The translations under genes were made by a program, and so were the position numbers. From contig JANOBC010000045.1 in assembly GCA_031411455.1 (NCBI GenBank), forward strand, positions 1 through 40,616: a DNA stretch of 40,616 nt, in the 5' to 3' direction. This DNA is from Limisphaerales bacterium (GTDB lineage Bacteria; Verrucomicrobiota; Verrucomicrobiia; Limisphaerales; UBA11358). Positions 1-36,576 of this stretch are shown here, piece after piece. Below the pieces are notes generated by a model. It saw only the letters and a program-made list of their open reading frames with translations, had not been told where the DNA came from and did no database searches. Position 1 is the stretch's first letter; every line of letters begins with the position of its first letter.

Positions 1-45
1 GCGCGGCCGGGAGTCGTAAATCGGCGGCAAAGTTACGAGCGTGTG

Positions 46-804
46 TTAATTCAGCCCGTTGGTTCCGCGCACCGACTGGGCGTGCCAGTCGAAGAACAGC
101 ACGTTACGAAGATTGTTGCCATGGATAGCCGTGGGGGAGATTTCGTTAGCAGGCGGAGCTTTTTGCCAACTGGCAACCGATGGGGAATTATCGAGGATCA
201 AATCCACATCACGCAATGCGTAGAGGTCGCTCAAATTATTGGTATATTTTGTAAGCCCCAAAATTTTTAATGGCGGTGCTCCGGCAGGAAGAGCGGCAAT
301 CAGGCCGGGAGGATACCCAAAGGGCCTGGAGTAATCGTCAGATGATATTATTTTACCTCTCGTTGAATAAGTTATCCGCTTGCCGTCCAGAATCGGGGTT
401 TGAAGCTGTATTTTAATAGACGCTGGACAGGTAAAAATGGGAACGGAATTGTTTAAATCATTTACAGAAGTTCTAGCCGCAGGATCTGGCAGCCCCATAT
501 ATGGATAGAGGTAAACAACCGGCATGTATTTCATGGCCGTCCATACGCTGCCCGCCGCGCTGCCAGCCGCCACGCCGCGTTCCAACGGGCCGGCGCATAC
601 GTCTTTGTTGTCGTCCGCATACATCTGGAACGCCAAGCCCTGCTGCTTCATGTTATTGAGACACGCCGTTTGCACCGCCTTCTGTTTCGCCTTGGCGAGC
701 GCGGGCAGCAACATGGCGGCGAGGATGGCGATGATGGCGATGACTACGAGCAGTTCAATCAGGGTGAACGCGTGGCGGGAACGGATGGTGCAGGGATTGT
801 TCAT
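46..804 (-). CDS. Prepilin-type N-terminal cleavage/methylation domain protein (DUF1559 / H-X9-DG type)
   Basis: N-terminus [29 protein letters not shown], then CLNNMKQ and FTCPA; C-terminal [14 protein letters not shown], a variant of the H-X9-DG motif. Confidence 0.9.
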
Positions 805-807
805 TTT

Positions 808-2391
808 TTATTGTTCAGCTTTTGATTCCTTGAGTTGTGCCTTCAGCTTTTCCACCGGTAGTCTGGCCGTCCAGAAGATGGCATGAGGCACAAGGTCTTC
901 CAGCCCCTTCGTCTGTTCGGGATGCGGGCTGACGAAAACCAAGCGGCCTTTCTTGAACTCGGCCGCGAGCATCGCGGGTGAATTCACCATCACTCCGGCG
1001 GGTGAGCCGTTCGAGGCGACCTCGGTGCGGTAGTAGGCGAGCGCTTCAAAGTTCGGCAAAGTTTCCACACCGGCTGCGACCACGACCGGGCCGTTATGAT
1101 AAACCACGTCTAGGTTCGTCGCCGTCGTGCCAAGAATTTCCCGTCCGCGCGCGGTGGTTTCCACTTTGAGCGTGGTCCGTCCGCGCTGCCACTTGGGCGA
1201 AACCGTTTTTGCGTTCACAATTTTCAGGCTCCACGGATAACCGGCGGTGCAGAGATACGCGCCCGCGCAGATGCCGACGTAGCCGCCGCCGTTGGCAACG
1301 AAATCCACCACGTTGCTCCGGCCAACTTCGCCGATGGCCTCGGCTTCCTTGCTGCCGCTGCCGCCGCCGAAGATGATGACATCGTAATTGGTCACGGCGT
1401 TGGCTTTGACTTCATCGGGAGAAATTTCGGTGATGCTGGATTCTGGCGGATGATTGAGCCGCTTCATCAAACTCGGCGGGCCGGCGCCACCGGTTCCCGG
1501 GCCTTTGTAGAGCGCGATGCGGAGTCGCACGGTGTTTGTTGACGCTGCGGGCGCTGGCGTCGTGGCGGCAACGGCGATTAGGTGGAGAACCGAGTTGTCG
1601 GCGAGGATGGGGCGTCCGGGTATTTCGCCATCCATCATGCCGAGATGTGCCAGCAAGGTATGCACGAGGACTTCCTGCTGATGCACGCGCTTGTCCATCG
1701 GCTGCTTGGAGGTCGTCTCCAAAGTCATCGCGGGAATATGCAGGTGCTCACCACCAGCGCGGGCAAGGCTGCCGTCAATCGGCATATCGCGACGGACAAA
1801 TTTTAATTTTTCATCCGTGATTTCCCGGTTGACTGCCGCGAGCATTTTATCGGCAGCCGCCACGCCTTTCGGATTTGGAAAATTGATCACGGAACTGCCG
1901 ACACTTTTTTCGTTCACCTGATTAAAATCAAAACCCTCGTGCAAATCCAAGAGCCAGTCGGGCTTGAATTGCAACGCGAGGTTCCAAATCTCCGTGGCGA
2001 GTTCTCCGCGCGGGCCTTCGGTTTTTCCGGCGCGCGGATAGTTGCGGTTGAGGTTGTTCAAGTTGGTTTCCAAGCCGGGGATGAGCCGCTTGTTGGCAAT
2101 GAGTCCGGGAACATTGGCGCGCGGCACGACGACGAGCTTGCCTTTCAGCAACGGCCATTGGCGGATGACCTCGGCGGAGTTCGCGCCCGCAGGTTCGTTG
2201 CCGTGAACGCCGCCGCAGATGAAGATCGTCGGGCCGGGCACACCGGTGTCGCGCACATACCATTCCGTTGTGAAGCGAGTGCCCGGCAGTAGAAGATTGG
2301 TTGAGGACATTTCCGCCGCCGGAATTTTTTCCGCCGCCAAAACTCCGAGGCACAACAGAAGCGCCGCCAACTTGGTGTGTGATTTTTCCAT
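808..2391 (-). CDS. Secreted fusion of an M14 succinylglutamate desuccinylase/aspartoacylase-like zinc peptidase and a BPL_N-like class I glutamine amidotransferase domain
   Basis: Signal peptide; M14 motifs GGVHGNE, NLNRNYP, LDLHEG, TLET; C-terminal GGGSG, YVGICAGAY (nucleophile-elbow Cys) and SPHPE (His-x-Glu). Confidence 0.8.
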   Translation of the reverse strand: MEKSHTKLAALLLCLGVLAAEKIPAAEMSSTNLLLPGTRFTTEWYVRDTGVPGPTIFICGGVHGNEPAGANSAEVIRQWPLLKGKLVVVPRANVPGLIANKRLIPGLETNLNNLNRNYPRAGKTEGPRGELATEIWNLALQFKPDWLLDLHEGFDFNQVNEKSVGSSVINFPNPKGVAAADKMLAAVNREITDEKLKFVRRDMPIDGSLARAGGEHLHIPAMTLETTSKQPMDKRVHQQEVLVHTLLAHLGMMDGEIPGRPILADNSVLHLIAVAATTPAPAASTNTVRLRIALYKGPGTGGAGPPSLMKRLNHPPESSITEISPDEVKANAVTNYDVIIFGGGSGSKEAEAIGEVGRSNVVDFVANGGGYVGICAGAYLCTAGYPWSLKIVNAKTVSPKWQRGRTTLKVETTARGREILGTTATNLDVVYHNGPVVVAAGVETLPNFEALAYYRTEVASNGSPAGVMVNSPAMLAAEFKKGRLVFVSPHPEQTKGLEDLVPHAIFWTARLPVEKLKAQLKESKAEQ

Positions 2392-2433
2392 TGAAGCTGA
2401 AGCAGACTCTAACTGATATGACCGCGTCGAGGA

Positions 2434-2451
2434 ATATGACGTTTGTTATAT
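2434..2451. promoter_or_regulatory. Putative transcription-factor operator in a divergent promoter
   Basis: ATATGACG-TT-TGTTATAT, with the dyad extending to 2431-2454 (GGAATATGAC...GTTATATTCC); matches the palindrome at 11932-11949. Confidence 0.65.
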
Positions 2452-2536
2452 TCCCAACCGCGCGGAACGCGGTAAAATTCGGGTTAGTAATTTGCGACCA
2501 TCAACAAAACCAGCTCGCCGTCTACCCACCACGAAC

Positions 2537-5500
2537 ATGAAGCATCCTGCTCTGACTCCATCCGCCGGAAAAAATAAATTCATTATCGCCGGTTGGTTGG
2601 CGCTGCTGGTCGTCGGCGTTCTGTGGTGTGAGCACAGCCGCGCCGCTGACATCACTTGGACCGGCGGAACTAACGGCGTGAACACCGGCACGGCCTGGCG
2701 CAGCGCGACCAACTGGGATTCAATCACCGTGCCCACCAGCGCGGACAATGCGATTTTCGACAGCGCCGGAACCGTGACGACCTGTGCCATTGATTTGGGA
2801 GCCGCCGCCGGCACCCAGCAAATCGGCGCGGTGACGGTAGGCGCGGGACGCAGCGCCGCTCTGTCCATCCGCAATCTGACCACAAGCACCACCGACGGAA
2901 TTCTACGGTTGAATGGAGTCGGCGGAACGGTTCTGTCCAATGCCTCCACCACTGCCTCGCTGACCTTCACCAATGCCAGCACGGGCAAGTTGCTGGGTTT
3001 GGGACTCGCTACTGATGGAACGGTGTATTCCACTGATGGCGGCGGCACTGCCGGGCAAATCAGCGTCTTCAGCATTATCTCGGATGTCGGCGGTTCGCGC
3101 AGCATCACTAAAACCGGGAATGGCATTTTCTATTTGCGCGGCGTGAATACTTACTCTGGCACCACGACGGTATTGGCGGGCAACCTCCAAGTGGATGATG
3201 TCGGCACTATCGGCATCGGCACGAACACATTGTTTCTTTCCGGTGGCAATCTTCAATCCGGTGCGAACCGCAATGGCACGAGCAGCACGCCCATCGCCAA
3301 TCCGATTGTGATCACGCAGGACGCCTACATTCAGAACAAGACGGGCACAGCCACCACACGTTATCTGGCGCTGTCAGGAACGCTGAGTGGCAGCGCGGGA
3401 ACGTTGAAAATCGCCGACCCGACGAGTGCAGTGGGCAACACTTTTGCCGTCCGCTTTTTTAACACCAACATTAACTTCAGCCGCCCGATGATTGTCGGTG
3501 AATTTGGCTACGATCTGGCTTCCGCATTCTCGGTGATGGAAACTGCCAACACCAACGGCACGCAAATTTTCAGTGGCGACATCTCCGGCGTGGGCAGCAT
3601 CCGCCGGTTGAATCCTTTCACTTCGGGAGCCGCCGCTGGCACGACGGTTTTCTCCGGCAACAACACTTACTCGGGCGGCACGGCCATCACGGCAGGAACG
3701 CTGCTCGCCAACAATTCCACCGGTTCCGCCCTCGGCAGCGGTGCGGTCACGGTGACCGGCCTAAATTCCATTCTCGGCGGCAACGGTTCCGTCGTGGCAA
3801 CAACCACGGTGAACACCAACGCCACCGTTTCGCCGGGAACGAACGCCACGACCACCGCGAACTTGGGCATCAGTGATCTAACCTTGGGCGGCGGCGCGAA
3901 TTTTCTCTGGCAGATTAAGTCCGCCACTGGCATCGGCGGCACGGACTGGGATTTGATCACTTGCAGTTCCAGTTGGACCGATGCGGCCAGCAGCGGCAAT
4001 CCCATCACGATCAAAATTGATTCGCTCGGCGCGTCCCCGACCGGCTGGAATTCTTTGACCGCGCGCGACTACGTCATCATCCAGTCCAGCACTGCGAATA
4101 GTTTCGACGCCAGCCACTTTGCCCTCGACACGACCGCGTTCAGCGGAACCATCGGCGGCGTGTTCAGCTTGAGCGTCGTCAGCGGTGCGCTGCATCTGAT
4201 TTACACCCCGGCGGCGGACACGGTCATTAACGTCGCGTCCGGCTCGGTCACGCAAGGCGGTGTTTCGCCCACGCCCTATCCCAACATCAACGTCCCCGGC
4301 GGCATCGTGAAAGTCGGCAATGGCGAAGTGGTGCTGACGAATTCTGCGAATAGCTATCCCGGCTCAACGAAAATTTACGCCGGCACGGTGAGCCTCGCGG
4401 TGGACGCGCTCAACGGCTCCGGCGCGTTTGGCGCGGCCGCCACGGCGGTGCAACTTGGCAACATCACCGGCAACAGCAACGCCACGCTCAACATCAACAC
4501 CGCCGGCGTCACGATGGGTCGCTCGGTCGTCGTTCAATCCGGCAGCAGCGGCAGCAAGACCATCGGCACGAGCATCACGAGCGGCACGGCGACATTTTCT
4601 GGCGATGTCGCTTTGCAAGACAGCGCTTCACTGACCGCCCCTGTCGGCGGTTCCGTAAATTTTTCTGGCAACTTCACCGGCGCGGGCGGACTCACGCTCG
4701 GCGGCGGCGGCGCAATCACGTTGAGCGCGGTGAATAGTTACGCTGGCATCACGACGCTCGGCGGCGGCACGCTGAACTTGAACGACAAGGGGCTTGGCAC
4801 AAATACATTTACCATTTCCGCCGTCAGCACACTCGACAACACCAGCGCGAGCAGCGTGACGTTGAATAACTGCCCGCAAAACTGGAACGCCAATTTCTCC
4901 TTCACCGGCACGACGAATTTGAATCTTGGCTCCGGCCCGGTGACGATGAGCGCCTCGCGCACCTTGACCGTCAACGCCAGCACGCTCACCGTCGGCGGCG
5001 TGATTGGCGGCAGCGCCGGTCTTACCAAACTCGGCGCGGGAACGCTCGCGCTTTCCAGTTCGACGAACAGCACCTACACCGGCGGCACGACGAACGCGGC
5101 GGGAACTATTTCCCTCAATGGCACGGCCACGTTTGGCGACGGCACGGGAACGCTCGCGTTGAGCGGCGGAAATATTTTGAGCACCGCCACGCGTTCCAGC
5201 ACGCCGATTTCCAACTCCGTCGTGATGTCAGCGGACACGACGATCTACGGCAACAGCACCGCCACCGCGCCGTCCTCGCGCATATTTCCCTTCAACGGAA
5301 ACTGGACGCAATCCGCCGGCACACTGCGCGTTGGCAACACCGGTTCATCCAACAACACTTTCTTCGTGCGCCTGCTCGCGGGCAGCAGCTTCACCGGCGC
5401 CGCCATTGTCGGCGATCCGGCGTTCGACACGCCCGGCGCGATTTCTGTTTTGCAATTTTACCAAGATTCCAACGCCCCGGTGCAGACCGTGAGCGGCACG

Positions 5501-6658
5501 ATTTCCGGCAACGGCCAAGTCTGGCGCGGCAACCTCGGCGTCGGCGCGGGCGGCACGAGCATTGTCACCGGCAACAACACCTTCGCGGGCGGCTTCATCC
5601 TGAATTCTGGCACGCTCGGCCTCGGCCTCAACAGCACACCGACCACCGGCGTCGTGACTTCCGGCCCGCTGGGAACCGGCACGTTTGAAATCCAAAACGA
5701 TCCGGTCATCAACATCTTCGCCGTGGGCGGTGCGCGGACGATTGCGAACAACATCCTGCTCAACGGCGTGACGAACACTACCTTCACCGGCACGAACGCA
5801 CTGACGTTCAACGGCAGCGTCAACGTCGGCACGGTTGGAAAAACGTTGACGGTGAACAACACCGCGCCGGTTACGTTCGCCGGCACGATGACGAATACCG
5901 CTGCGCTCACGAAAGCCGGGTCGGGCACGCTGATTTTCTCCGGCGACAGCAGCTCGCGCACGAACGCCACCACCGTCAACGCGGGAACATTGCTCATTAA
6001 TAACCCCACCGGCAGCGGCACGGGCAGCGGCGATGTGACGGTGAATTCCGGCGGCACACTCGGCGGCACGGGCGCGATTGGTGGCGCGGTCACCGTGAAT
6101 GCGGGCGGCATCATTTCCGCTGGGGCGTCCATCGGCACGCTCACCATCAACAGCAATCTTACGCTCGTCGGCAACGTGCTGGTTGAGGTCAATAAATCTC
6201 TTTCGCCTTCGAACGATCTCATCGTTGTGAACGGTTTGCTGACCAACGCTGGCACGGGGACCATTACTGTCAGCAACCTTGGCCCGGCGCTGGCGGTCGG
6301 GAATAAATTCCAAATTTTCAGCGGCGCGGTGGCGAACGGCGGCGCGCTCGCCGTCACTGGCGGCGGTGTGAACTGGACGAACACGCTCGCGGTGGACGGC
6401 AGCATCGCGGTGCTTTCCATCGTGTCATCGGTGAACACGAATACCTTCACCATCGGCGCCAGCGTCAGTGGCAATAATCTCAACTTGAGCTGGCCGCCGG
6501 ATCGCCTGGGCTGGAAAGTCCAGACGCAAACGAACACTTTGAGCAGCGGCTTGAACACCAACTGGGTCACGCTGCCGGCCACGGCCACAGTGACGAATTA
6601 TACCGTCATCATCAATTCCGCCAATCCGACGGTGTTCATCCGCATGGTTTATCCGTGA
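2537..6658 (+). CDS. Large secreted autotransporter-associated beta-strand repeat protein without a beta-barrel
   Basis: ATG at 2537 preferred; signal peptide ending SRA-ADITW; many LTKxGxGTLxLxGxNTYSGxT repeats; C-terminal LSWP..LGW..QTN..NW..VFIRMVYP domain. Confidence 0.85.
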   Translation: MKHPALTPSAGKNKFIIAGWLALLVVGVLWCEHSRAADITWTGGTNGVNTGTAWRSATNWDSITVPTSADNAIFDSAGTVTTCAIDLGAAAGTQQIGAVTVGAGRSAALSIRNLTTSTTDGILRLNGVGGTVLSNASTTASLTFTNASTGKLLGLGLATDGTVYSTDGGGTAGQISVFSIISDVGGSRSITKTGNGIFYLRGVNTYSGTTTVLAGNLQVDDVGTIGIGTNTLFLSGGNLQSGANRNGTSSTPIANPIVITQDAYIQNKTGTATTRYLALSGTLSGSAGTLKIADPTSAVGNTFAVRFFNTNINFSRPMIVGEFGYDLASAFSVMETANTNGTQIFSGDISGVGSIRRLNPFTSGAAAGTTVFSGNNTYSGGTAITAGTLLANNSTGSALGSGAVTVTGLNSILGGNGSVVATTTVNTNATVSPGTNATTTANLGISDLTLGGGANFLWQIKSATGIGGTDWDLITCSSSWTDAASSGNPITIKIDSLGASPTGWNSLTARDYVIIQSSTANSFDASHFALDTTAFSGTIGGVFSLSVVSGALHLIYTPAADTVINVASGSVTQGGVSPTPYPNINVPGGIVKVGNGEVVLTNSANSYPGSTKIYAGTVSLAVDALNGSGAFGAAATAVQLGNITGNSNATLNINTAGVTMGRSVVVQSGSSGSKTIGTSITSGTATFSGDVALQDSASLTAPVGGSVNFSGNFTGAGGLTLGGGGAITLSAVNSYAGITTLGGGTLNLNDKGLGTNTFTISAVSTLDNTSASSVTLNNCPQNWNANFSFTGTTNLNLGSGPVTMSASRTLTVNASTLTVGGVIGGSAGLTKLGAGTLALSSSTNSTYTGGTTNAAGTISLNGTATFGDGTGTLALSGGNILSTATRSSTPISNSVVMSADTTIYGNSTATAPSSRIFPFNGNWTQSAGTLRVGNTGSSNNTFFVRLLAGSSFTGAAIVGDPAFDTPGAISVLQFYQDSNAPVQTVSGTISGNGQVWRGNLGVGAGGTSIVTGNNTFAGGFILNSGTLGLGLNSTPTTGVVTSGPLGTGTFEIQNDPVINIFAVGGARTIANNILLNGVTNTTFTGTNALTFNGSVNVGTVGKTLTVNNTAPVTFAGTMTNTAALTKAGSGTLIFSGDSSSRTNATTVNAGTLLINNPTGSGTGSGDVTVNSGGTLGGTGAIGGAVTVNAGGIISAGASIGTLTINSNLTLVGNVLVEVNKSLSPSNDLIVVNGLLTNAGTGTITVSNLGPALAVGNKFQIFSGAVANGGALAVTGGGVNWTNTLAVDGSIAVLSIVSSVNTNTFTIGASVSGNNLNLSWPPDRLGWKVQTQTNTLSSGLNTNWVTLPATATVTNYTVIINSANPTVFIRMVYP

Positions 6659-6670
6659 TGAATTTTTATC

Positions 6671-6706
6671 CGCAAAACCCGCGCTGGCAACGGCGCGGGT
6701 TTTGCG
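6671..6706 (+). terminator. Stem-loop (terminator or mRNA-stabilising hairpin)
   Basis: CGCAAAACCCGCGCTG-GCAA-CGGCGCGGGTTTTGCG: 16-bp stem with one G-T pair and a GNRA loop, between two co-oriented genes. Confidence 0.65.
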
Positions 6707-6718
6707 CGAAATTTTACC

Positions 6719-8905
6719 GTGATTTTTCCGTCCCTTAAAAACCTTTTTGCCGTGCTGTTCGCTGCGGTGGGAATTTTTTTATTCCTGTCCGCCGCGCGGG
6801 CGCAGACCTACGTTCCCGGCAGCAGTTATTTTGGCCGGAGCAATTACGTCCAATACATCGCGGGCGATCTGCCGATCATCATTTCCGCGCCGCACGGCGG
6901 CGCATTGACCCCGGCGGAAATTCCCGACCGCGTGGACGATGGCTCCGATCCCAACTACACCATTGTGACCGACTCGAACACTGAGGAAACCGCACTCGCC
7001 TTCCAGTCCGTTTTCGCCGCCACGTTCGGCCACAGCCCGCACGTCATCACCATGCGCTTGAGGCGGACGAAGGTTGACGCCAACCGCAGCCTCGCGCAGG
7101 GCGTTTATCAGACAAATACGTTTGCGACGCAGGCGTGGAATGAATTTCAAAACTGGATCAACACCGGCAGCAACGCCGCCGTGGCGTTGAGCGGACGCGG
7201 CTTCTACATTGACCAGCACGGCCAAGGCCACACGATCCAGCGGCTCGAACTCGGTTACCTCCTTTCCAGTTCGCAACTGATGAATTCAGACGCGACGCTC
7301 AACTCGACGACCTGTCGCAACCAGTCCAGCATCCGCACGCTCGGCACGCTCGTGAGCAATCAATTCGCGATTCCGTTCTCGCAAATTTTGCGCGGGAGCA
7401 ACAGTTTTGGCGGACTCATGGAAACGCGCGGTTACGATTCCGTTCCCAGCCCGCTGTATCCCGATCCCGGCAGCGGCAATCCGTATTTCGACGGCGGCTA
7501 CAATACCGACACGCACACCTCGCAAAGCGGCGGCCCGATGGACGGGTTGCAGATCGAGGCGAACCTCACTGGCGTGCGCGACACGTCGGCCAACCGCGCC
7601 GCCTACGCCCTAGCCGTCGCGCAGTCGCTGGATTTTATTTTCACCAATTACTACGGCATTGATTTGAGGCTGGCCGCGCCGTGCATCTGGGGCATCGGTT
7701 CGGGAAAATTTGCGACGGCGGCGAATTGGTCCAACGGCATCGTGCCGGTCGCGGGAAATTATCTTTTGTTCAGCGGCGCGGGCGGCGCGGTCAGCAACAA
7801 TCTCGCCGCGCTCACCACGGGCACGGGAAGAATCTATTCGCTGCTCTACGCCACGAACTGCGGCGGCAGCTACACGAACTACGGCAACCCCATCAGCCTC
7901 GTCGCGGGCGTCACAAATTTTTCTGCGTTCAGCCAGAACATCAGTAACGCCATCACGCTGCTCGCCGCGCAGAGTTTTTTCGCGAGCAACGCGCCGCTAA
8001 ATCTTTTCGGCAACCTCACGAACAGCGGATTTAATCTGTCATTCAATGCCGCAACCAATCTCACGGTGAGCGGCGTTATCAGCGGCGCGGGTGGACTCGT
8101 CAAAAACGGCGGCGGCGTTTTGACTTTGAATGCCGCGAACACTTTTTCCGGCGCGACGACGAATCTTGCGGGGCTTTTGCTCGCGAATAATTCCACCGGC
8201 AGCGCGAACGGCGGCGGCGCGCTGTTCGTCAATTCCGGCGCGACGCTCGGCGGCACGGGCATTGTCAGCGGGCCGGTTTCCATTTCCGGCAGCCTCGCGC
8301 CCGGCAATCCCATCGGCACGCTCACCGTTACGAATGGACTGATTTTCACCAATGGCGGCAGCTATTTCTGGACGCTCGCCGCAAACGCCACCAATTCGCC
8401 CGGCGTGAACTTTGACCAAATTATTTTGTCCGGCGGCACTCTGGTTTTGAATTCCAATTCACCGCTCGTCATTGCCTTCACCAATTCCGCCACCGCGCCC
8501 GCGACCAACGTGGCTTTCTGGCAGTCGCCGCGTTCGTGGAAAATTATTTCACTCGGCGCGGCGGCAACAAATCTTGGTCTCGCGAAGTTTGCTTCAATTT
8601 CTAATAATAATTTCACTGCTGGAAAGTTTGTCAGCACGGCGGACGCGCAAGGAAATGTGCTGCTGAATTTTCTGCCCACGCCGTCGCCAGTCGTTTCGCC
8701 CGCATTACCCGGCGCTGGCACGGCCAGCGTGAATGTGAGTTGGAGCGCCATCGCTGGCGTGACGTATCAGTTGCAGTCCAGCACGAATCTCGCGACGACC
8801 AACTGGCTGCCGCTCGGCAATGTCACCGCCGCTTCCACCAACGCGACGCTGTCAGACACGAACGCTGGTTCGCCGCAAAAGTTTTACCGCGTGGTCATTC
8901 CTTGA
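6719..8905 (+). CDS. Secreted N-formylglutamate amidohydrolase-like zinc hydrolase fused to autotransporter-associated repeats
   Basis: Signal peptide (ARA-Q); IIISAPHGG, VTDSNT, KVDANR, IDQHGQ, YFDGGY, LQIE; then LVKNGGGVLTLNAANTFSG repeats and a C-terminal W..YQLQSSTNL..W..FYRV domain. Confidence 0.75.
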   Translation: MIFPSLKNLFAVLFAAVGIFLFLSAARAQTYVPGSSYFGRSNYVQYIAGDLPIIISAPHGGALTPAEIPDRVDDGSDPNYTIVTDSNTEETALAFQSVFAATFGHSPHVITMRLRRTKVDANRSLAQGVYQTNTFATQAWNEFQNWINTGSNAAVALSGRGFYIDQHGQGHTIQRLELGYLLSSSQLMNSDATLNSTTCRNQSSIRTLGTLVSNQFAIPFSQILRGSNSFGGLMETRGYDSVPSPLYPDPGSGNPYFDGGYNTDTHTSQSGGPMDGLQIEANLTGVRDTSANRAAYALAVAQSLDFIFTNYYGIDLRLAAPCIWGIGSGKFATAANWSNGIVPVAGNYLLFSGAGGAVSNNLAALTTGTGRIYSLLYATNCGGSYTNYGNPISLVAGVTNFSAFSQNISNAITLLAAQSFFASNAPLNLFGNLTNSGFNLSFNAATNLTVSGVISGAGGLVKNGGGVLTLNAANTFSGATTNLAGLLLANNSTGSANGGGALFVNSGATLGGTGIVSGPVSISGSLAPGNPIGTLTVTNGLIFTNGGSYFWTLAANATNSPGVNFDQIILSGGTLVLNSNSPLVIAFTNSATAPATNVAFWQSPRSWKIISLGAAATNLGLAKFASISNNNFTAGKFVSTADAQGNVLLNFLPTPSPVVSPALPGAGTASVNVSWSAIAGVTYQLQSSTNLATTNWLPLGNVTAASTNATLSDTNAGSPQKFYRVVIP

Positions 8906-8940
8906 AACTGTCAACCGGGAATGAAATCATCAACTCCGCC

Positions 8941-10197
8941 ATGACTTCCCTCCTAAAAAAGATTTCGCTCACGCAATGGATTCTGGTCGCCATCGTTGTC
9001 GGCGTCACGGTCGGCTGGCTGTTTCCGGATGGATCACAAAACCTCAAGGTCGTCTCCAATCTTTTTCTTCACCTCATCAAGTGCATCATCGTGCCGCTGA
9101 TTTTCAGCACGCTCGTCGTTGGCATCGCGGGCCACACGGACGACATCAAGGCCGTCGGACGTCTCGCTCTGAAGTCCATCATCTATTTTGAGATCGTTAC
9201 CACGCTCGCGCTGTTTGTCGGGTTGGGCGCAGTTAATTTAATTCGTCCTGGCGATGGCATTGTGCTCGCCAAAAGCGCGGATGTTGGACAGAAATTCGCG
9301 CAGACCAAGGTGACGCTCGAAGGTGTGGTGGAACATCTCGCGCCGCAAAGTTTTTTCGACGCCGCTGCGCGCAATGACGTGTTGCAGGTAGTTATCTACG
9401 CGATTTTCTTCGGCATCGCGCTCACCCAGGTCACGGGCAAGCCGAAGCACACAGTGCTGGATTTTTTTGAGGGCATCACGGCGGTGATGTTCAAGTTCAC
9501 CGGGTTGGTCATGTGGTTTGCGCCGCTCGGTGTCGGGGCGGCGATCGCGGTCGCCGTCGGCGCGAATGGTCTGGGCATCCTCGCCAATCTCGGCAAGCTC
9601 GTGCTCACGCTCTACGGCGCGCTGCTGGTGTTCGTGGTGTGTGTGCTGATTCCGGTGATGTGGATTGCGCGCATCCCCGTGGTAAATTTTTTCCGCACGG
9701 TGCGGCAGCCGGCGCTGCTCGCGTTTTCCACGGCCACCTCCGAGGCGGCGCTACCCGACGCGTTGCGGCTCATGGAAAAATTTGGTGTGCCAAAACGCAT
9801 CGTCGCGTTCGTGCTGCCGACGGGTTACTCGTTCAACCTCGACGGTTCGACGCTGTATCTCGCGCTGGCGTCGGTGTTCGTCGCGCAGGCGGCGGGCATC
9901 GAATTGGATTTCAAGACGCAGTTGATGATGATGCTCACGCTGATGCTCACCAGCAAAGGCGTCGCCGCCGTGCCCCGCGCGTCGCTGGTGATTTTGTCCG
10001 GCACGCTCGTCACGTTCGGACTGCCGCTGGAAGGCGTCGCGGTGATTCTGGCGGTGGATGCGTTCCTCGACATGGCGCGCACGTCCATCAATCTCGTCGG
10101 CAACTGCCTCGCCTCGGCCGTGATGGCGCGCTGGGAGGGTGAGTTTGATGACGCTGCGGCGAATGGAGTTGCAACGGAACCGCCGGTCACTAGCTGA
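8941..10197 (+). CDS. gltP: Dicarboxylate/amino acid:cation symporter (GltP/GltT-like glutamate/aspartate transporter)
   Basis: ATG at 8941; motifs IIVPLIFSTLVVGIA, AFSTATSEAALP, LPTGYSFNLDG, LTSKGVAAVPRAS, DMARTSIN. Confidence 0.9.
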   Translation: MTSLLKKISLTQWILVAIVVGVTVGWLFPDGSQNLKVVSNLFLHLIKCIIVPLIFSTLVVGIAGHTDDIKAVGRLALKSIIYFEIVTTLALFVGLGAVNLIRPGDGIVLAKSADVGQKFAQTKVTLEGVVEHLAPQSFFDAAARNDVLQVVIYAIFFGIALTQVTGKPKHTVLDFFEGITAVMFKFTGLVMWFAPLGVGAAIAVAVGANGLGILANLGKLVLTLYGALLVFVVCVLIPVMWIARIPVVNFFRTVRQPALLAFSTATSEAALPDALRLMEKFGVPKRIVAFVLPTGYSFNLDGSTLYLALASVFVAQAAGIELDFKTQLMMMLTLMLTSKGVAAVPRASLVILSGTLVTFGLPLEGVAVILAVDAFLDMARTSINLVGNCLASAVMARWEGEFDDAAANGVATEPPVTS

Positions 10198-10219
10198 AAT
10201 TAGAACAATAAAAATTACG

Positions 10220-11914
10220 ATGTTTTTCTCATCTCCTAGCTTGTTGAACTCATCTGCGAGAATTTCTGTTTTAATTTTTTGCCTCGCCGCGAAGAGTATT
10301 TTTGCGGAAGCGCCAACGCACGGCATGGTTTCCTCAACGTATCCGCTCGCCACGGATGCGGGGGTGGACGTTTTGAAATCCGGCGGCAATGCGGTTGACG
10401 CGGCCGTGGCCGTCGGCCTCACGCTCGGCGTGGTGGACGGCCACAACTCCGGCATCGGCGGCGGTTGCTTCATGCTCATCCGCCGCGCGAATGGCGAAAT
10501 CATCGCGATTGACGGACGCGAGAAAGCGCCCGCCGCCGCCACGCGCGATATGTTCGTGCGCGAGGGCAAGGCCGACACGACGTTGAGCCAGACGGGGCCG
10601 CTGGCGAGCGGCGTGCCGGGAGAAATCGCGGCGTTCGATTACGCGGTTAAAAACTTTGGGAAGAAAAAATTTGGCGAACTCTTCGCCCCGGGGGCGAAGA
10701 TCGCCGAAGAAGGTTTTCCGTTGAAGGAGATTTATGCGGCGCGGTTAAAACTTGAAGCGGGCAACCTGAATCAATTTGACGATTCGCGGAAAATTTTTCT
10801 GACCAACGGTCTTCCGTTCAACGTTGGCGACATTTTGAAACAGCCTGACCTCGCCAAGACTTACCGCGCGCTGGCGGAGCAGGGGAGCGACTGGTTTTAT
10901 CGCGGCCCGTTTGCGCAGGCGACGGCGGCGTGGATGCAGGCGCATGGTGGCATCATGACCACGCAGGACTTTGCCGATTACTCCATCAAGCTGCGCGAGC
11001 CGGTGTCCACCGACTATCGCGGCTACAAAATCGTGACCTTCTCGCCACCGAGTTCTGGCGGGGTGCATTTGCTGGAGATGCTCAATACGCTGGAACATTT
11101 CGACCTGAAACAATTGGATGCGGCCACGCGGCTGCACGTTATCGCCGAAACGATGAAGCTCGCATTCGCCGACCGCGCGTATTGGTTGGGCGATCCTGAT
11201 TTTGTAAAAGTGCCGCGCGGACTCATCGCGAAAGATTATGGCGCGGCGCTTGCCAAAAAAATCAGCCTTGACCGCGCGGCGGAAGTTTCCGGCCACGGCA
11301 CACCGTCGGATGCCGCGACAAATGTTTTCTCCGATAAGCACACGACTCATTTTTCCGTGGCCGATGCGGAGGGCAATTGGGTCGCTTGCACCTGCACGGT
11401 GAATACTGGGTTTGGTTCTAAAGTCGTCGTGCCCGGCACCGGCGTTTTGTTGAACAACCAGATGGATGATTTTTCTGTGCAGGCGGGCGTGCGGAATCAT
11501 TTTGGTTTGGTCGGCGCGGAGGCAAACTGCGTTGCGCCGGGCAAGCGTCCGCTGTCGAGCATGACGCCGACGATTGTTTTGAAAGATGGCCAGCCCATCA
11601 TCGCGCTCGGCGCAGCGGGCGGACCGAAAATTATTTCCACCGTGCTGCTTGAATTGGTTGAGCTGCTCGACCTAAACCACACGCCCGCCGAGGCGGTGGC
11701 CGCGCCGCGTATTCATCAACAATGGTCGCCGGATGAATTGCTGGTCGAGCCATCCCTTTCCCTGGAGCTGCAAAAATCACTGGCTGGCCGTGGCCAGAAA
11801 ATCAGAGTGAGCAAAATCGGTTCAACCTCACACATCGTGGCGCGCAGTGCCGACGGGAAGGGTTTCATTGGCGCCGCCGACCCGCGCAGCGACGGCACGG
11901 CGACGGGTTGGTGA
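10220..11914 (+). CDS. ggt: Gamma-glutamyltransferase
   Basis: GGNAVDAAVA, SGIGGG, IDGRE, PPSSGG, catalytic Thr in HTTHFSV, LLNNQMDDF, KRPLSSMTP, GAAGG, ADPR; N-terminal signal-like segment; start at 10220 inferred. Confidence 0.93.
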   Translation: MFFSSPSLLNSSARISVLIFCLAAKSIFAEAPTHGMVSSTYPLATDAGVDVLKSGGNAVDAAVAVGLTLGVVDGHNSGIGGGCFMLIRRANGEIIAIDGREKAPAAATRDMFVREGKADTTLSQTGPLASGVPGEIAAFDYAVKNFGKKKFGELFAPGAKIAEEGFPLKEIYAARLKLEAGNLNQFDDSRKIFLTNGLPFNVGDILKQPDLAKTYRALAEQGSDWFYRGPFAQATAAWMQAHGGIMTTQDFADYSIKLREPVSTDYRGYKIVTFSPPSSGGVHLLEMLNTLEHFDLKQLDAATRLHVIAETMKLAFADRAYWLGDPDFVKVPRGLIAKDYGAALAKKISLDRAAEVSGHGTPSDAATNVFSDKHTTHFSVADAEGNWVACTCTVNTGFGSKVVVPGTGVLLNNQMDDFSVQAGVRNHFGLVGAEANCVAPGKRPLSSMTPTIVLKDGQPIIALGAAGGPKIISTVLLELVELLDLNHTPAEAVAAPRIHQQWSPDELLVEPSLSLELQKSLAGRGQKIRVSKIGSTSHIVARSADGKGFIGAADPRSDGTATGW

Positions 11915-11930
11915 GGACTTGGGCGGGAGT

Positions 11931-11950
11931 CATATAACAAATGTTATATG
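11931..11950. promoter_or_regulatory. Putative transcription-factor operator
   Basis: Perfect inverted repeat CATATAACA-AA-TGTTATATG upstream of the 12076 gene; same motif as 2434-2451. Confidence 0.7.
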
Positions 11951-12075
11951 GACGCTAAAATTGAAAGATGGGATGATTTCCCCGATTTGCTAGCCTAGGG
12001 AAAATCCGCAGCCAAAATTAGCAATCAAGTTTGTCAAACCGACCCGCTCAATCTGAACCCTGACTACTCCCAACC

Positions 12076-15000
12076 ATGAAAAAATTCCTTAATGTAATAT
12101 GTATTGTCATCGCGCTATTTTTCTCTGGCGCCGCCAACACATCTCTCGCGCAATCGGTTTGGACCAACGTTAGCGCCAGCACGACTTGGCTGGGTGCCTT
12201 AAATTGGAATCCAAACGGCTCGCCGACAAACGGGACGGAAGTCGCTCAGTTCAATGGCACCGCCCCCACCAGCGGCACCGTCGGCATTGGGATAAACATG
12301 AACACGCTGGGAGGACTGTGCAGGGTCGGGGCCATTGAAGTGACCAGCGCCCGCAGCAGCTTGAATTTGATAATTGCGGACAGCAGCACGACGGTCAGCG
12401 GCAGCTTGCAGCTCAATGGCGCTACGGTGAACGGTGTGGCCAATACAATTCTTCGCAACGCTGGAGCGGGCACGACTACCTTGATCCTGACGAACACTCT
12501 AACCACCGGCAATCAGACCATGTCCGTTAGCAACAATCTGGCAAATGCGCTCATTGACGCCAGCTCGGCCATCACCATTTACAGCATCATCACTGGCAAT
12601 GGCTTTACGAAGACCGGTGCGGGAGCTTTGACCTTGGTGGCGTCCAATCTTTATTCGGGCAACACGATCATCAGCAATGGCATCCTCGGGATCAATGACG
12701 GCGGCTACCTGAACAACTCGACCCTAGTGCTGGCCGGCGGCACGTTGCAGCGCAATGCGCAAAACATCACCCCGTCACGTGCGAACGCGTATCGTTCGCC
12801 GTTGGTGGTGTCCAACAGTTCGACCGCGCAAACGACGACCACCACCACCCGCACGATTAATTTCGAGGCTCCGTTCACCGCCGTGGCCGGCACCACGTTG
12901 ACCGTGACTAATACGGGCGCGGGCGGCACCAACCGTTTCCGTTTTTATGCCGGCGGTTTCACGAACGCAGGAAACATTGTTTTGGCTCCCAACATCAGCG
13001 GCGCCCTCGGCCGTGTGCAGTTGGAACTCTACAACTCCAACAACCCGGCAGGCGGCTCGGACATCCTTTTCTCGGGCATCATCAGCGGCGCTGGCACGCT
13101 TTATAAAAACATTGATGTCAACCCCGGCGGTAACGTCATTCTTTCGCAACCGAACACCTATACGGGCGGCACGGAAATTCGCGGCGGCTTTTTCGGTCTC
13201 GCCACAAACAACGCGCTCGGCTTTGGCAACGTCATCATCGGCAACGACCCGAACCCCATCGGGCTTTATGCCGTTGGCGCGGCCCGCTCGTTCACTAACG
13301 ATGTGACGGTGGATACGTCCTCGGCCAACACCACCAACCTCCAAATCAATGGCGCGCAAGACTTGACCTTGTCCGGCCGCGTTTTGATTCATAGCAACCT
13401 GATGTTTTTCACGGTCAGTAACACCGCCACGACCACGTTCTCCGGCACGGTGACGAACGCCTTTGCCAATGCGCTGGGTATCTCCAAACAAGGATCCGGC
13501 AAGCTGGTTTTGAGCGGCACGGCGGCTTACAGCGGAACCACCCGCGCGGCGGCTGGCACGCTCGCCTTGAGCGGGGCGGCGGTGCCGAACAATACCACCA
13601 ACCTCACCGTCTTTGGCGGTGCGACGCTGGACATTTCCGCCTTGAGCGGCACTTGGACGCTGGCAAATTCGCAATCACTGCAAGTCGCCAGCCCAGTCGC
13701 TTCCGCCACGCTGATTGGCAGCGGCTCGGTTGGATTGACGCTCGGCAGCACGAGTCCGCTGGTGCTGGCGTATTCCAATGGCATTCCCTCGCTCACCGTC
13801 ACCGGCGGCGTGCTGACTGTGGCGAGCGGCAATCCCGCGACGGTCACGGTCGCCAATGGCGGCTTCGGCTTGCCGGCGGGTGATTACAAATTGATTTCCA
13901 CCAGCAGCGGCGGTGCCGTGGCCGGCACCGCGCCGACTTCGGTCACGGTCAATGGCGATGGTCTTGGTGGCATTTCGCCCGTGCTGGTGATTTCCAACGC
14001 GGAACTTTATCTGCACATTGACGTATCGCCGACGCCGCCTGCCGTGCCCGTGGTGAAAGCCGCTTCCAGCACCAATATCACCGGCTTCACCGCCAGTTGG
14101 AATTCCGCCAGCGGCGCGACCGGCTACCGGTTGGATGTTTCCCTGGTGAACAATTTCAGTTCGTTTGTTTCCGGCTACAACGACCTTGATGTGGGCAACG
14201 TCGTCTCGTTTGCAGTGACCGGCTTGAGTCCGGCTACGACCTATTTTTATCAGGTTCGCGCCACGAACACTTTTGGCACGAGCGCCAGTTCGTCCGTCAC
14301 GAATGTGACCACGCTCGTCGCGCCGTATTTATGGAACGCGGGTAATGGCAACTGGAGCGATTCCTCAAGCTGGCAATACGCCAACGTCCCCGTCAACGGC
14401 GTCAGCCCCGGCTTCACCGGCGCGGGCGGCAATTCCACCAATGACCTTTCCAGTCTGCTGCTTAATTCAATCACGTTCTCGAACGGTGCCGGGGCTTACA
14501 CGGTTTCTGGCAACGGCCTCGTCGTGAGCAACGGCATTCTCAACAACTCGACGGCGGGGGAAACCATTTCCGCGCCACTGACCTTGGGGGCGGCGCAGAC
14601 CTTGAACGCTGCTGTCGGCGCGCTAAATATTTCTGGCCCGGTCACCAATGCCGGCAACACGCTTACTTTCAACGCCGCCGCCACTAGCACCAACAGCGGT
14701 TCCATCTCCGGCAGCGGCGCGCTGATTAAAAATGGTGCCGCCACGCTATTCTTGTCCGGTGCGAACACCTACACAGGTGCGACCACGAACAATGCGGGCA
14801 ACCTACAAGTGGCTGGCGGCTCCGCGCTGCCTGACGCGGCGACTCTGGTGCTGGCAAACACCGCCGGTGTCACCTTGACGGTTGATGCGAATGAAACCGT
14901 TGGTTCGATTTCCAGCGGCGACAACACCACGATTGCGCTCGGGGCAAACAATTTGACCGTTGGCGGCGACGGAACCTCCACCACGAACACCAGCGCCATC

Positions 15001-17184: not shown

Positions 17185-17204
17185 CCGAGAATGGCTGCGG
17201 GTAA

Positions 17205-17233
17205 CCCTCTCCTCCCTCCGAGGGAGGAGAGGG
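17205..17233. repeat. Palindrome downstream of the giant gene (REP-like or terminator-like)
   Basis: CCCTCTCCTCCCT-CCG-AGGGAGGAGAGGG, a perfect 13-bp stem with no T-tract. Confidence 0.6.
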
Positions 17234-17371
17234 AGTCAGAATAAGAACAGTGTCAAGCTGCACCCCTCCGTCCGGCTGGAGTAACGCCAAGGCTTGTTAC
17301 CGCCCGTTTCTCTGCTACCTTCCACGCCCTTGTGAAAATAATTTTACGCGCGCGTCGCCACCAGCACTGAC

Positions 17372-19294
17372 ATGGCCACCATCATTTCAGCTTCCACTGT
17401 TTCGGTGCGCTACAACAACCGCACCATCCTTGACGAAATCACGCTCGGCATTCAGGAGGGCGAACGCATCGGCCTCGTCGGGCGCAACGGCTGCGGCAAG
17501 ACCACGTTCCTGAAAATTCTCGCGGGGTTGCAGCAACCCGATAGCGGTGAAATTTCCAAGCAACGTGACCTTGTGGTGAGTTATCTGCCGCTGTATTTCA
17601 TGCTCGATGAGACGAAGAATGTTTATGAAAACGTCCGCGACGGCGCGCAGCATGTCTTGAATCTCATCAAGGAATTTGAATCCCTCCCGCACGACTCCAA
17701 GCGCCACGAGCAATTGGAGCAGCGCATCATGATCCTCGACGGCTGGACGGTGGATCGCCGTATCGAAATTGCCCTGGCGCATTTAAATTGTCCGGCCGCC
17801 GACCGCCGCATTGAAACGCTTTCCGGCGGCGAGAAGCGGCGCGTGGCGATGGCGCGGGCGATTGTTTCGCAGCCGGATTTCCTGATGCTCGATGAGCCGA
17901 CGAACCATCTTGACCCGGAATCCATCGAGTGGGTCGCGGAGTTTCTTGAAAGTTTCAGCGGCAGTTATCTCGTCATCACGCACGACCGTTATTTTCTCGA
18001 CCGCGTCGCCACGACGATTCTTGAGTTGTATGACGGCAAGTTTTTTTCTCACGCCGGCAATTACACCGACTACCTCCTCGCCAAGGCCGAACGTCAGGAA
18101 GCCGACGCCACCATCGAACACAAGCGCCAGATGTTTCTGAAAAAGGAACTCGCGTGGGTGCGCCAAGGCCCGCGCGCGCAACGCAGCAAGCAGAAGGACC
18201 GCTTCGAGCGCTATTACAACGAAGCCGCCAAGGACGGCCCGATGATCGAGGAGGACATGGAGCTATGCATCCCGCCGCCGCCGCAACTCGGCAATCGCAC
18301 GGTGGATGTCACCGACCTCGGAATGGAACTCGGCGGGAAGAAATTATTTTCCGGTTTTAATTATTCGTTTCAGAACGGCCAGCGCATCGGCGTCTGTGGA
18401 CGTAACGGCCTTGGCAAATCCACGTTGCTCAAAACGATGATCGGCCAGTTGCAGCCGACGGAAGGCGTCGTGAAAATCGGCCAGCTCACGAAGTTCAACT
18501 ACGTTGACCAAGGCCGCCTGCATCTGAACGAAAACCGCACCGTGCTCGACGAAGCGTCGGACGGCACGGAGTTTGTCATCTGGGGCGACGCGAAAATTTC
18601 CGTGCGCTCCTATCTCAAGCGCTTTCTGTTTGCCGACGACCGCATCCTGACCGAAGTGCGGAAATTGAGCGGTGGCGAACGCAGTCGTTTGCTGCTCGCG
18701 AAGATTCTGAAATGCGGCGGCAACTTTCTCATCCTCGACGAGCCGACGAACGACCTCGACCTGCCGACCTTGCGTGTGCTCGAAGAAGCGCTTGTCGCGT
18801 TTCCCGGCTGCGTGTGCGTCGTGAGCCATGACCGTTATTTTCTCAATCGCGTCTGCACGGACATCCTCGCGTTTGAAGGCGACGGCAAAATCCATCACAG
18901 CGTCGGCGACTACGATTATTATCTGGAGAAAAAACAGAAAGCCGCCAAGGCGCAGGAGACCGCCGCCCGCGACCTCGCTGCCAAGTATGTCGCTGATGCC
19001 GCCAAAGCCGCCGCGCCGGAAAAGCCCAAGGCCAAGGCGCGCAAACTTTCCTTCAAGGAGATGCACGAACTCGCCGGGATGGAAGCGCACATCCACGCCA
19101 TCGAAGGCGAGATTGCTCGCATCGAAAATCTTTTCGCCGCACCGGATTTCCATCGCACGCACGCCGGACAGGCCAATCAACTGATGGCTGAATTGGAATC
19201 GGAAAAAGCCAACCTCGCCAAACTTTTCACTCGCTGGGAAGAACTGGAAGCGCGCAAGACCGAGACGGAGCCGGGGAACACCGACGCCAGCTAA
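17372..19294 (+). CDS. ABC-F family ATPase (Uup-like)
   Basis: Two nucleotide-binding domains (GRNGCGKTT/LSGGE/LDEPTNHLD and GRNGLGKST/LSGGE/LDEPTNDLD), no membrane segments, C-terminal KLSFKE..RWEELE coiled coil. Confidence 0.92.
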   Translation: MATIISASTVSVRYNNRTILDEITLGIQEGERIGLVGRNGCGKTTFLKILAGLQQPDSGEISKQRDLVVSYLPLYFMLDETKNVYENVRDGAQHVLNLIKEFESLPHDSKRHEQLEQRIMILDGWTVDRRIEIALAHLNCPAADRRIETLSGGEKRRVAMARAIVSQPDFLMLDEPTNHLDPESIEWVAEFLESFSGSYLVITHDRYFLDRVATTILELYDGKFFSHAGNYTDYLLAKAERQEADATIEHKRQMFLKKELAWVRQGPRAQRSKQKDRFERYYNEAAKDGPMIEEDMELCIPPPPQLGNRTVDVTDLGMELGGKKLFSGFNYSFQNGQRIGVCGRNGLGKSTLLKTMIGQLQPTEGVVKIGQLTKFNYVDQGRLHLNENRTVLDEASDGTEFVIWGDAKISVRSYLKRFLFADDRILTEVRKLSGGERSRLLLAKILKCGGNFLILDEPTNDLDLPTLRVLEEALVAFPGCVCVVSHDRYFLNRVCTDILAFEGDGKIHHSVGDYDYYLEKKQKAAKAQETAARDLAAKYVADAAKAAAPEKPKAKARKLSFKEMHELAGMEAHIHAIEGEIARIENLFAAPDFHRTHAGQANQLMAELESEKANLAKLFTRWEELEARKTETEPGNTDAS

Positions 19295-19318
19295 ACTCCG
19301 CCAGCCGGCAAAACTTTC

Positions 19319-19375
19319 AGACAGGATTAACAAGATTCACAGGATTGAATCCTGATAATCCGGTTAATCCTGTCT
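19319..19375. repeat. Inverted arrays of 9-bp tandem repeats
   Basis: ACAGGATTA-ACAAGATTC-ACAGGATTG followed by AATCCTGAT-AATCCGGTT-AATCCTGTC, between convergent genes. Confidence 0.8.
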
Positions 19376-19489
19376 AAAAAATCCGCTGAAAAACTGGCGA
19401 GTGTTAACAATTTTATTTCAGCGGCTCTGAAGGTTTGTTCGAGTGCAGCGGTCGATTGATGCGAAAGGTTTTAGCTTGGCGTCGCCGGT

Positions 19490-36575: not shown

Positions 36576-36576
36576 T

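What the first reader, a model, noticed from the sequence alone, without database searches (positions are those of the whole stretch)
2431..11950. Shared 18-bp operator-like palindrome ATATAACA-NN-TGTTATAT in both promoter regions
11932-11949 is a perfect dyad. 2434-2451 (ATATGACGTTTGTTATAT) matches 14 of the 16 arm positions, and a further ATATGAC half-site lies about 18 bp upstream of it. Two AT-rich dyads placed upstream of the two paralogous giant genes, one in the divergent promoter, are unlikely by chance in GC-rich DNA. This is direct sequence evidence that the locus is one regulon. No regulator gene is in the window.
Basis: seen in the sequence. Interest (0 to 1): 0.72.

Follow-up and report, generated by a model that had tools for sequence, protein, structure and literature searches.

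The report
Activator box of a two-component regulator
The two palindromes are real and conserved in related bacteria, and are most likely docking sites where a sensor-controlled regulator encoded just beyond the window's left edge switches on a gene cluster predicted to digest glutamate- and aspartate-rich peptides: a familiar kind of switch on an unusual cargo.

Summary
Observation confirmed; reading refined. The two sites are the only matches within 3 mismatches in the 3.5-Mb genome. A third copy lies on contig C158, which a contig from a second sequencing study joins to the window's left edge. C158 carries the missing regulator: a beta-propeller sensor kinase and a NarL/FixJ-family response regulator about 5.5 kb away. 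Site 1 is the only conserved island in the same intergenic region of four other genomes from three families. The word is better written 7-4-7 (ATATRAC-N4-GTYATAT). It follows regulators with a GTVR[VI]HL recognition helix: 19 of 22 such genomes have an exact site, against about 13% of others, and 1 of 80 loci around other helices has one. A -10-like hexamer lies 23 nt downstream, putting the dyad at about -43.5, as for NarL at yeaR. So it is probably an activator site, not a repressor operator, and site 1 would drive both divergent promoters. The cargo (gamma-glutamyltransferase, Glu/Asp transporters, a poly(aspartate) hydrolase-1 homologue, amidohydrolases, PEP carboxykinase) suggests use of acidic isopeptides. 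Binding, start sites and signal are untested. Known kind, new member.

The parts
2434..2451 (.). Site 1: 7-4-7 dyad (one G-type and one A-type half) in the divergent promoter; predicted response-regulator box serving both directions
   Evidence: conserved in G226, G272, G362, G394
11932..11949 (.). Site 2: perfect dyad (two A-type halves) between ggt and the second giant gene
   Evidence: a 1-mismatch dyad lies after ggt and before a large secreted-type gene in G362; that gene's available N-terminal part did not align to the window's gene
2473..2479 (+). Predicted -10 element of the rightward promoter (22-23 nt after the 16-bp core)
   Evidence: inferred, no start-site data
2406..2411 (-). Predicted -10 element of the leftward promoter (23 nt after the core on the other strand)
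   Evidence: inferred
11972..11977 (+). Predicted -10 element of the second giant gene (23 nt after the core, with TG one base upstream)
   Evidence: inferred; a consensus scan preferred another hexamer 6 nt after the dyad
2416..2422 (+). Extra half-site 18 nt upstream of site 1; probably incidental
   Evidence: present, not conserved in the four other genomes
46..804 (-). Prepilin-type N-methylation / DUF1559 protein, predicted co-transcribed with the next gene
   Evidence: Pfam; orthologues 62-75% in G362 and G226
808..2391 (-). Secreted-type fusion of an AstE/AspA-like Zn amidohydrolase and a BPL_N (class I amidotransferase-like) domain
   Evidence: Pfam; HxxE, GxCxG and HPE motifs present; orthologues 59-72%
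2537..6658 (+). Giant beta-strand-repeat (PATR) protein 1
   Evidence: ATG at 2537 lines up with the G226 start; the longest ORF starts at 2492
6719..8905 (+). N-formylglutamate-amidohydrolase-like domain fused to PATR repeats
   Evidence: many close homologues carry PF05013; no direct Pfam hit for that domain at E<=0.001
8740..10197 (+). Dicarboxylate/amino acid:cation symporter (GltP/DctA family; below both curated cut-offs); true start probably downstream of 8740
   Evidence: G272 has a GltS Na+/glutamate symporter at this position
10139..11914 (+). Gamma-glutamyltransferase
   Evidence: TIGR00066 above cut-off; PDB hits; nucleophile Thr motif present
12076..17184 (+). Giant PATR/fn3 protein 2, paralogue of protein 1
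1..240 (.). Left edge, homologous (78%) to the end of contig C158. Beyond it lie site 3 (19 to 2 bases left of position 1), the operon pckG-dctA-PahZ1-like-hydrolase, and the kinase/regulator pair (C158 4619-7588 and 7643-8293)

Best explanation
The dyad is most likely the binding site of the NarL/FixJ-family response regulator encoded about 5.5 kb left of the window on contig C158, which is predicted to activate these promoters from position -43.5. Inferred working: the upstream membrane kinase (beta-propeller Reg_prop repeats, Y_Y_Y, HisKA_3) would sense a breakdown product and phosphorylate Asp59. The regulator would dimerise and place recognition-helix residues R187, V188 and H191 (aligned to NarL K188, V189, K192) on the two 7-bp arms. 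It would then recruit RNA polymerase to weak promoters whose -35 position begins right after the dyad. Three sites would drive four transcription units: amidohydrolase-pilin (leftward) and PATR1-amidohydrolase-symporter-ggt (rightward) from the single site 1; PATR2 from site 2; pckG-dctA-PahZ1-like-hydrolase from site 3. The likely job is to break down acidic isopeptides (gamma-glutamyl and beta-aspartyl peptides or polymers), import Glu/Asp and feed gluconeogenesis. Shown: sites, rarity, conservation, linkage, helix co-occurrence, fixed spacing. Inferred: binding, activation, operon limits, signal and substrate. Confidence is about 0.8 for the regulator and activation, about 0.5 for the substrate class.
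For: Rarity. With A/G allowed at arm position 5, the genome has 2 exact, 1 one-mismatch (site 3) and 3 two-mismatch hits. Linkage: one 1,096-bp contig of run X3 (study P2) covers window 1-754 and C158 from 13460. In G362, another family, kinase (68%), regulator (84%), hydrolases, pilin, amidohydrolase, site 1 and PATR1 lie on one contig. Footprint. Helix: only the C158 protein among 12 close paralogues has GTVR[VI]HL. Exact site in 12 of 14 genus genomes with that helix against 18 of 136 without, and in 7 of 8 order genomes against 39 of 292. Held out from the 4 genomes that defined the helix: 16 of 19. In 12 of 22 the exact site is on the regulator's contig within 14 kb; the 3 lacking an exact site have 1-2 mismatch sites beside the regulator or kinase. 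Negative control: 1 of 80 loci (1.24 Mb) around other-helix regulators has a site within 1 mismatch, and that one has a near-identical helix. Two regulator lineages share helix and word, and the AU test rejects them as one clade with the helix columns dropped (p 6e-54; 0.0018 with their nearest relatives added). Spacing: xAxxxT hexamer exactly 23 nt after the core in 16 of 33 de-replicated gene-facing flanks, against 3 of 22 non-facing flanks; the null for the best offset had maximum 11 in 5,000 shuffles. All 4 gene-facing directions in this genome have such a hexamer at 22-23 nt. NarL binds at -43.5 at yeaR and reads bases through K188/V189/K192 (PMC10853779, passages); alignment. Cargo.
Against: No binding, start-site or expression data. 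The helix pattern was derived from motif-bearing loci, and kin are not independent; the two-lineage comparison is only n=2. Genus-wide the word is not enriched: 30 of 150 genomes hit, against about 40 for the reversed control by my count of the table. The same letters occur without this helix: 10 copies in G347, with -35-like words 4-7 nt away (10 of its 21 regulator hits were read), and one beside a TetR-like ORF in G097 (family recalled from sequence). 11 of 80 control loci have 2-mismatch hits, so such hits are weak. 18 of 44 gene-facing flanks lack a good -10 at 22-24. The window-C158 join rests on contigs of a strain about 97% identical plus a short X1 contig, not on this assembly. 0 of 29 pckG orthologue loci in the genus carry the dyad, so site 3 is lineage-specific. 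The PahZ1 homologue was found in 3 of the 5 genomes with this regulator lineage.
Confidence: 0.8

Rival explanations
1. The dyad is a repressor operator of an unrelated one-component regulator (for example TetR family) that blocks promoters it overlaps; each half resembles a -10 hexamer.
For: All-A-type versions of the word occur near -35-like words in G347 and beside a TetR-like ORF in G097. A consensus scan placed a promoter across site 2. The genome has one TetR gene, on C317.
Against: Does not explain the tracking of one recognition helix in two lineages, the 23-nt spacing on gene-facing sides only, or linkage to the kinase/regulator pair. The hexamer 6 nt after site 2 is absent at the matching G362 site, which has one at 23 nt.
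Confidence: 0.07
2. The dyad is read by a different NarL-type paralogue, in trans or missing from this 91%-complete assembly, and the C158 pair is only a neighbour.
For: The genome has 12 close paralogues. Regulators with slightly different helices (GTVRNHL, GTVRAHL) also sit by such dyads.
Against: None of the other 11 has the helix. The C158 orthologue stays with these genes in G362 and next to dctA or pckG in G226 and G272.
Confidence: 0.06
3. The same regulator binds here but represses some or all of these promoters.
For: The dyad abuts the -35 position; no expression data exist.
Against: The spacing equals the activating geometry of NarL at yeaR and of class II tra boxes. The bases at the -35 position are degenerate beyond TTG.
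Confidence: 0.05
4. The two sites are leftovers of the duplication that made the paralogous giant genes, or chance AT-rich palindromes, with no shared regulator.
For: The two genes are paralogues; perfect palindromes are common in the genome.
Against: A third copy precedes unrelated pckG. The dyad is conserved while its flanks are scrambled across three families. In relatives it also precedes glycoside hydrolase operons and a glutamate dehydrogenase.
Confidence: 0.02

Closest known systems
E. coli NarX/NarL at the yeaR promoter (PMC10853779, passages read)
   Same: NarL/FixJ-family regulator with a HisKA_3 kinase; one 16-18-bp dyad centred at -43.5, just upstream of -35; specificity expected from the same three helix positions.
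   Different: Different word (7-4-7 here, 7-2-7 for NarL), different helix residues (R-V-H against K-V-K), a large beta-propeller sensor instead of NarX, and a small local regulon instead of a global one. Below the NarL equivalog cut-off (132 against 250 bits).
TraR at tra box I, Ti plasmid (PMC3907764, passages read)
   Same: One 18-bp inverted repeat about 45 nt upstream of the start activates two divergent operons through a LuxR-type helix-turn-helix.
   Different: TraR is switched by a quorum signal; here a receiver domain and a kinase are present.
Bacteroidota polysaccharide utilisation loci with Reg_prop/Y_Y_Y hybrid sensors (recalled, no call)
   Same: A beta-propeller sensor controls a local cluster of secreted hydrolases, surface proteins and transporters.
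   Different: Here kinase and regulator are separate and the DNA-binding domain is GerE/LuxR, not AraC; no SusC/SusD pair was seen; the cargo is peptidase-like, not glycosidase.
PahZ1 poly(aspartic acid) hydrolase-1 (PDB 6ve6; PMC13017698, passages read)
   Same: The C158 gene 9674-10555 aligns at E 2e-34 and keeps residues matching the Ser/Asp/His triad and the Arg.
   Different: Activity untested; it scores as well against a putative PHB depolymerase (3d0k, E 1e-33). The passages read discuss synthetic polyaspartate; 'natural substrate', 'operon' and 'Verrucomicrob' had no occurrence in that paper's main text.

Membership tests
NarL/FixJ-family response-regulator activator site | Linked regulator with receiver plus GerE/LuxR helix-turn-helix and intact phospho-site residues | tested here: met
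   Pfam Response_reg + GerE; D13-D14, D59, T87, K109 present
NarL/FixJ-family response-regulator activator site | Adjacent HisKA_3 kinase | tested here: met
   HisKA_3, HATPase_c, Reg_prop, Y_Y_Y; H, N and G boxes
NarL/FixJ-family response-regulator activator site | Inverted repeat of about 16-20 bp conserved upstream of orthologues | tested here: met
NarL/FixJ-family response-regulator activator site | Centre near -42 to -45 relative to the transcription start | tested here: inconclusive
   Fixed 23-nt spacing to a -10-like hexamer implies -43.5; no start site was mapped
NarL/FixJ-family response-regulator activator site | Site word follows the recognition helix | tested here: met
   19 of 22 genomes with the helix against 18 of 136 and 39 of 292 without; 1 of 80 control loci
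NarL/FixJ-family response-regulator activator site | Phosphorylation-dependent binding and activation | not testable with these tools
   needs EMSA and in vitro transcription
E. coli NarL 7-2-7 site proper | NarL orthologue with K188/V189/K192 and the NarL heptamer | tested here: not met
   R187/V188/H191; below equivalog cut-off
Repressor operator (TetR-like) | Repressor gene adjacent, dyad overlapping -10/-35 | tested here: not met
   single TetR gene on another contig; spacing places the dyad upstream of -35
Structured RNA (Rfam) | Match to a covariance model | tested here: not met
   0 matches in window 1-20000 at gathering thresholds
PahZ1 poly(Asp) hydrolase (regulon member) | alpha/beta hydrolase with Ser-Asp-His triad and substrate-positioning Arg | tested here: met
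   alignment to 6ve6 read against residues named in PMC13017698
PahZ1 poly(Asp) hydrolase (regulon member) | Cleavage of beta-aspartyl amide bonds | not testable with these tools
   needs an enzyme assay

The most novel reading that the evidence does not exclude
This is a PUL-like locus for natural acidic polyamides (gamma-glutamyl and beta-aspartyl polymers) under its own two-component switch, which gives PahZ1-type enzymes, studied on synthetic polyaspartate, a native context and inducer. In addition, the paralogous Verrucomicrobial regulators follow a readable recognition code: two separate lineages use GTVR[VI]HL helices on the same dyad, with R-V-H going with A-type halves (11 of 16 halves, 8 of 8 sites) and R-I-x with G-type halves (49 of 50), so regulons could be assigned from the helix alone.
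Probability: 0.3. Interest if true: 0.65.

Novelty: new member of a known kind. Interest (0 to 1): 0.42.

Why it matters
These uncultured Verrucomicrobia carry a dozen look-alike two-component regulators per genome, and this ties one of them to a defined DNA word, promoter geometry and gene set, which is directly testable in vitro. The regulon groups orphan hydrolases (a PahZ1 homologue, a formylglutamate-amidohydrolase-like surface protein, an AstE/BPL_N fusion) with Glu/Asp uptake, giving a lead on how sediment bacteria recycle acidic isopeptides. The switch itself is of a well-known kind, and this scan's earlier notes describe several similar cases.

Tried and rejected
A position-weight-matrix scan was not run, so weak sites are known only from mismatch counts. 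A CcpN-like link (recalled, because of pckG) was dropped: 0 of 29 pckG orthologue loci carry the dyad. De novo dyad listing on the contigs of the other 11 regulators showed no recurring word I could assign (one arm length and one spacer were printed). The first search for orthologues with the amidohydrolase in 60 relatives gave only partial-domain hits, and none of those loci held the dyad; true orthologues came later through the helix pattern. Automatic alignment of site 2 with the G362 region did not align the dyads. PDB sequence searches found nothing for the amidohydrolase-like domain or the second C158 hydrolase; the G226 M28 peptidase did not hit PahZ2. No RNA holder was listed among sequencing runs. 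Literature: no paper on this motif or regulator was found in searches (listings and abstract starts only; subscription journals are mostly not covered; supplements were not read). One search gave nothing used. Look-ups of earlier findings by place and by sequence were blank. No structure or complex prediction was run.
Full report
Observation. Shuffles of the window never gave a match. In the whole assembly (3.54 Mb, 444 contigs, 57% GC) these are the only two matches within three mismatches. The window is contig C45, bases 1-40616. The closest named relatives of its regulator are Verrucomicrobia, and the runs holding it are sediment metagenomes.

Anatomy. Site 1 lies between a leftward pair (AstE/AspA-BPL_N fusion, prepilin-type DUF1559 protein) and a rightward run (giant PATR protein, amidohydrolase-like PATR protein, GltP/DctA-family symporter, gamma-glutamyltransferase). 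Site 2 follows ggt and precedes a second giant PATR protein. A near copy of site 1 is at C158:13783-13800, upstream of PEP carboxykinase (GTP), DctA, a PahZ1-like hydrolase and a second hydrolase-like protein.

The missing regulator. The last 237 bases of C158 are 78% identical to window 1-240. One 1,096-bp contig of run X3, from a second study, covers window 1-754 with 23 differences. A contig of the same length and depth covers C158 from 13460, with few differences up to 13801 and many after. A short X1 contig across 13478-13831 carries the window's base at 13808. I read this as the window continuing into C158 at about 13801, with C158's tail being a minor variant. Site 3 then lies 19 to 2 bases left of position 1, and a Reg_prop/Y_Y_Y/HisKA_3 kinase and a receiver-GerE regulator lie about 5.5 kb away. 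Independently, G362 (another family) has kinase, regulator, hydrolases, pilin, amidohydrolase, site 1 and PATR1 on one contig.

Footprint. In G226, G272, G362 and G394 (three families counting this genome's) the region before the PATR1 homologue is unalignable except for the dyad; in G394 the leftward gene was not identified. The conserved word is 7-4-7 with A or G at arm position 5. The extra half-site is not kept. G362 also has a 1-mismatch dyad after ggt and before a large secreted-type gene, though that gene's available part does not align to PATR2, and another before a glutamate dehydrogenase.

Which regulator. The genome has 12 close paralogues. Only the C158 one has the helix GTVR[VI]HL, which it shares with regulators beside the dyad in three relatives. 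I turned that helix into a pattern and searched. In the genus sample, 14 of 150 genomes have it; 12 of those have an exact dyad, against 18 of 136 without (Fisher p 4e-8, overstated by kinship). In the order sample, 8 of 300 have it; 7 have an exact dyad, against 39 of 292. Leaving out the genomes that defined the helix, 16 of 19 hold. In 12 of 22 the dyad is within 14 kb on the regulator's contig. The three exceptions have 1-2 mismatch dyads beside the regulator or kinase; 2-mismatch hits are weak, as 11 of 80 control loci have them. Around 80 regulators with other helices, only 1 locus has a dyad within one mismatch, and its helix is nearly the same. The helix positions align to NarL K188, V189 and K192, the base-reading residues (PMC10853779, passages).

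Two lineages. The tree puts this regulator with those of G226, G272, G362 and G394 (R-V-H), apart from an R-I-x clade whose loci encode GH10, GH43, GH3, GH98, arabinofuranosidases and esterases (22 chosen proteins). With the helix columns dropped (31 of the rows), the AU test rejects joining the two. R-V-H sites have A-type halves in 11 of 16 cases and R-I-x sites in 1 of 50. This fits a recognition code but rests on two lineages. A sister pair with R-A-H has no dyad within two mismatches.

Activator geometry. Over 33 exact sites from helix-bearing genomes, 26 of 44 gene-facing flanks have a -10-like hexamer 22-24 nt after the 16-bp core (shuffle mean 6.1, maximum 14); 5 of 22 non-facing flanks do. 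Because I chose that window after looking, I repeated the test on 33 de-replicated flanks against the best of all offsets: 16 at offset 23, null maximum 11 in 5,000. Twenty-three bases is a -35 hexamer plus a 17-nt spacer, and the commonest first three bases are TTG. The core then spans -51 to -36, centre -43.5, the position of NarL at yeaR. Site 1 has such a hexamer on both sides, like tra box I, which activates two divergent operons (PMC3907764, passages). Loci of G173, G209 and G441, which have dyads and related but non-matching helices, were left out of these counts.

Against. The word is not enriched genus-wide over its reversed control. The same letters serve other purposes: ten copies in G347, placed like repressor sites, and one beside a TetR-like ORF in G097. 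A consensus scan read site 2 as overlapping a promoter. pckG is not under this dyad in 29 genus orthologue loci. Nothing was measured in vitro or in RNA.

Cargo. GGT is above its curated cut-off. G272 has GltS where this genome has the GltP/DctA-family symporter, G362 puts the dyad before glutamate dehydrogenase and has a glutaminase nearby, and G226 adds an M28 peptidase. The C158 hydrolase matches PahZ1 at E 2e-34 with its catalytic residues, and nearly as well a putative PHB depolymerase; it was found in 3 of 5 genomes of this lineage. PahZ1 cleaves beta-aspartyl bonds (PMC4456602, listing and start of abstract only). I infer a locus for acidic isopeptides, with Glu/Asp uptake and entry to gluconeogenesis. 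The substrate is the weakest step.

Verdict. A real, well-supported regulatory signal of a familiar kind. My five paper searches found no description of this motif or regulator. Earlier notes of this scan report several comparable Verrucomicrobial response-regulator boxes (unchecked, not independent), which lowers the surprise. What this case adds is the regulator recovered across an assembly break, the helix-word link in two lineages, and the peptide-type cargo. Interest 0.42.

Noticed in passing
G000:C158:13802-14038 (L010): The contig's last 237 bases are a 78%-identical variant of window 1-240, at lower depth in run X1 (3.9 against 9.2): probably a strain bubble that broke the assembly here.
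   Followed up: yes
G347, loci L136-L142: Ten all-A-type dyads on different contigs (7 read), most with a -35-like word 4-7 nt away; no matching helix among the 10 of 21 regulator hits read. Looks like a separate repressor regulon using the same letters.
   Followed up: partly
L073-L092, L123-L126 (G162, G091, G143, G064, G135, G017 and others): Xylan-type glycoside hydrolase clusters (GH10, GH43, GH3, GH98, arabinofuranosidase, esterases) carry the G-type dyad with the R-I-x regulator clade: a second predicted regulon.
   Followed up: partly
L156, L157: Sister regulators (67-69% identical) with an R-A-H helix and no dyad; L156's neighbours look sugar-related. A natural test case for a changed site word.
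   Followed up: no
window 19313-19386, 22458-22569, 28089-28200, 28973-29078: Short intergenic repeats, some palindromic, with copies on many other contigs (REP-like).
   Followed up: no
window 36577-39237 (-): NAD-dependent DNA ligase of 886 aa with its adenylation domain in two stretches, longer than usual by recall; GC drops to 44% at 36001-37000.
   Followed up: no
window 19490-20710 (-), 20815-22434 (+), 33507-34082 (-), 35985-36575 (-): ORFs of 406, 539, 191 and 196 aa with no Pfam hit.
   Followed up: no
window 26285-27163 (+): DUF4357 protein in a lower-GC patch (50%) right after mfd.
   Followed up: no
L169, L172: Records labelled Bifidobacteriaceae carry regulators that group with this genome's paralogues; the labels may be wrong.
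   Followed up: no
G000:C158:2570-4510 (L010, -): Membrane-type esterase divergent from the kinase, conserved in G362 (65%) and G226 (78%); no dyad within 3 mismatches before it in this genome.
   Followed up: partly
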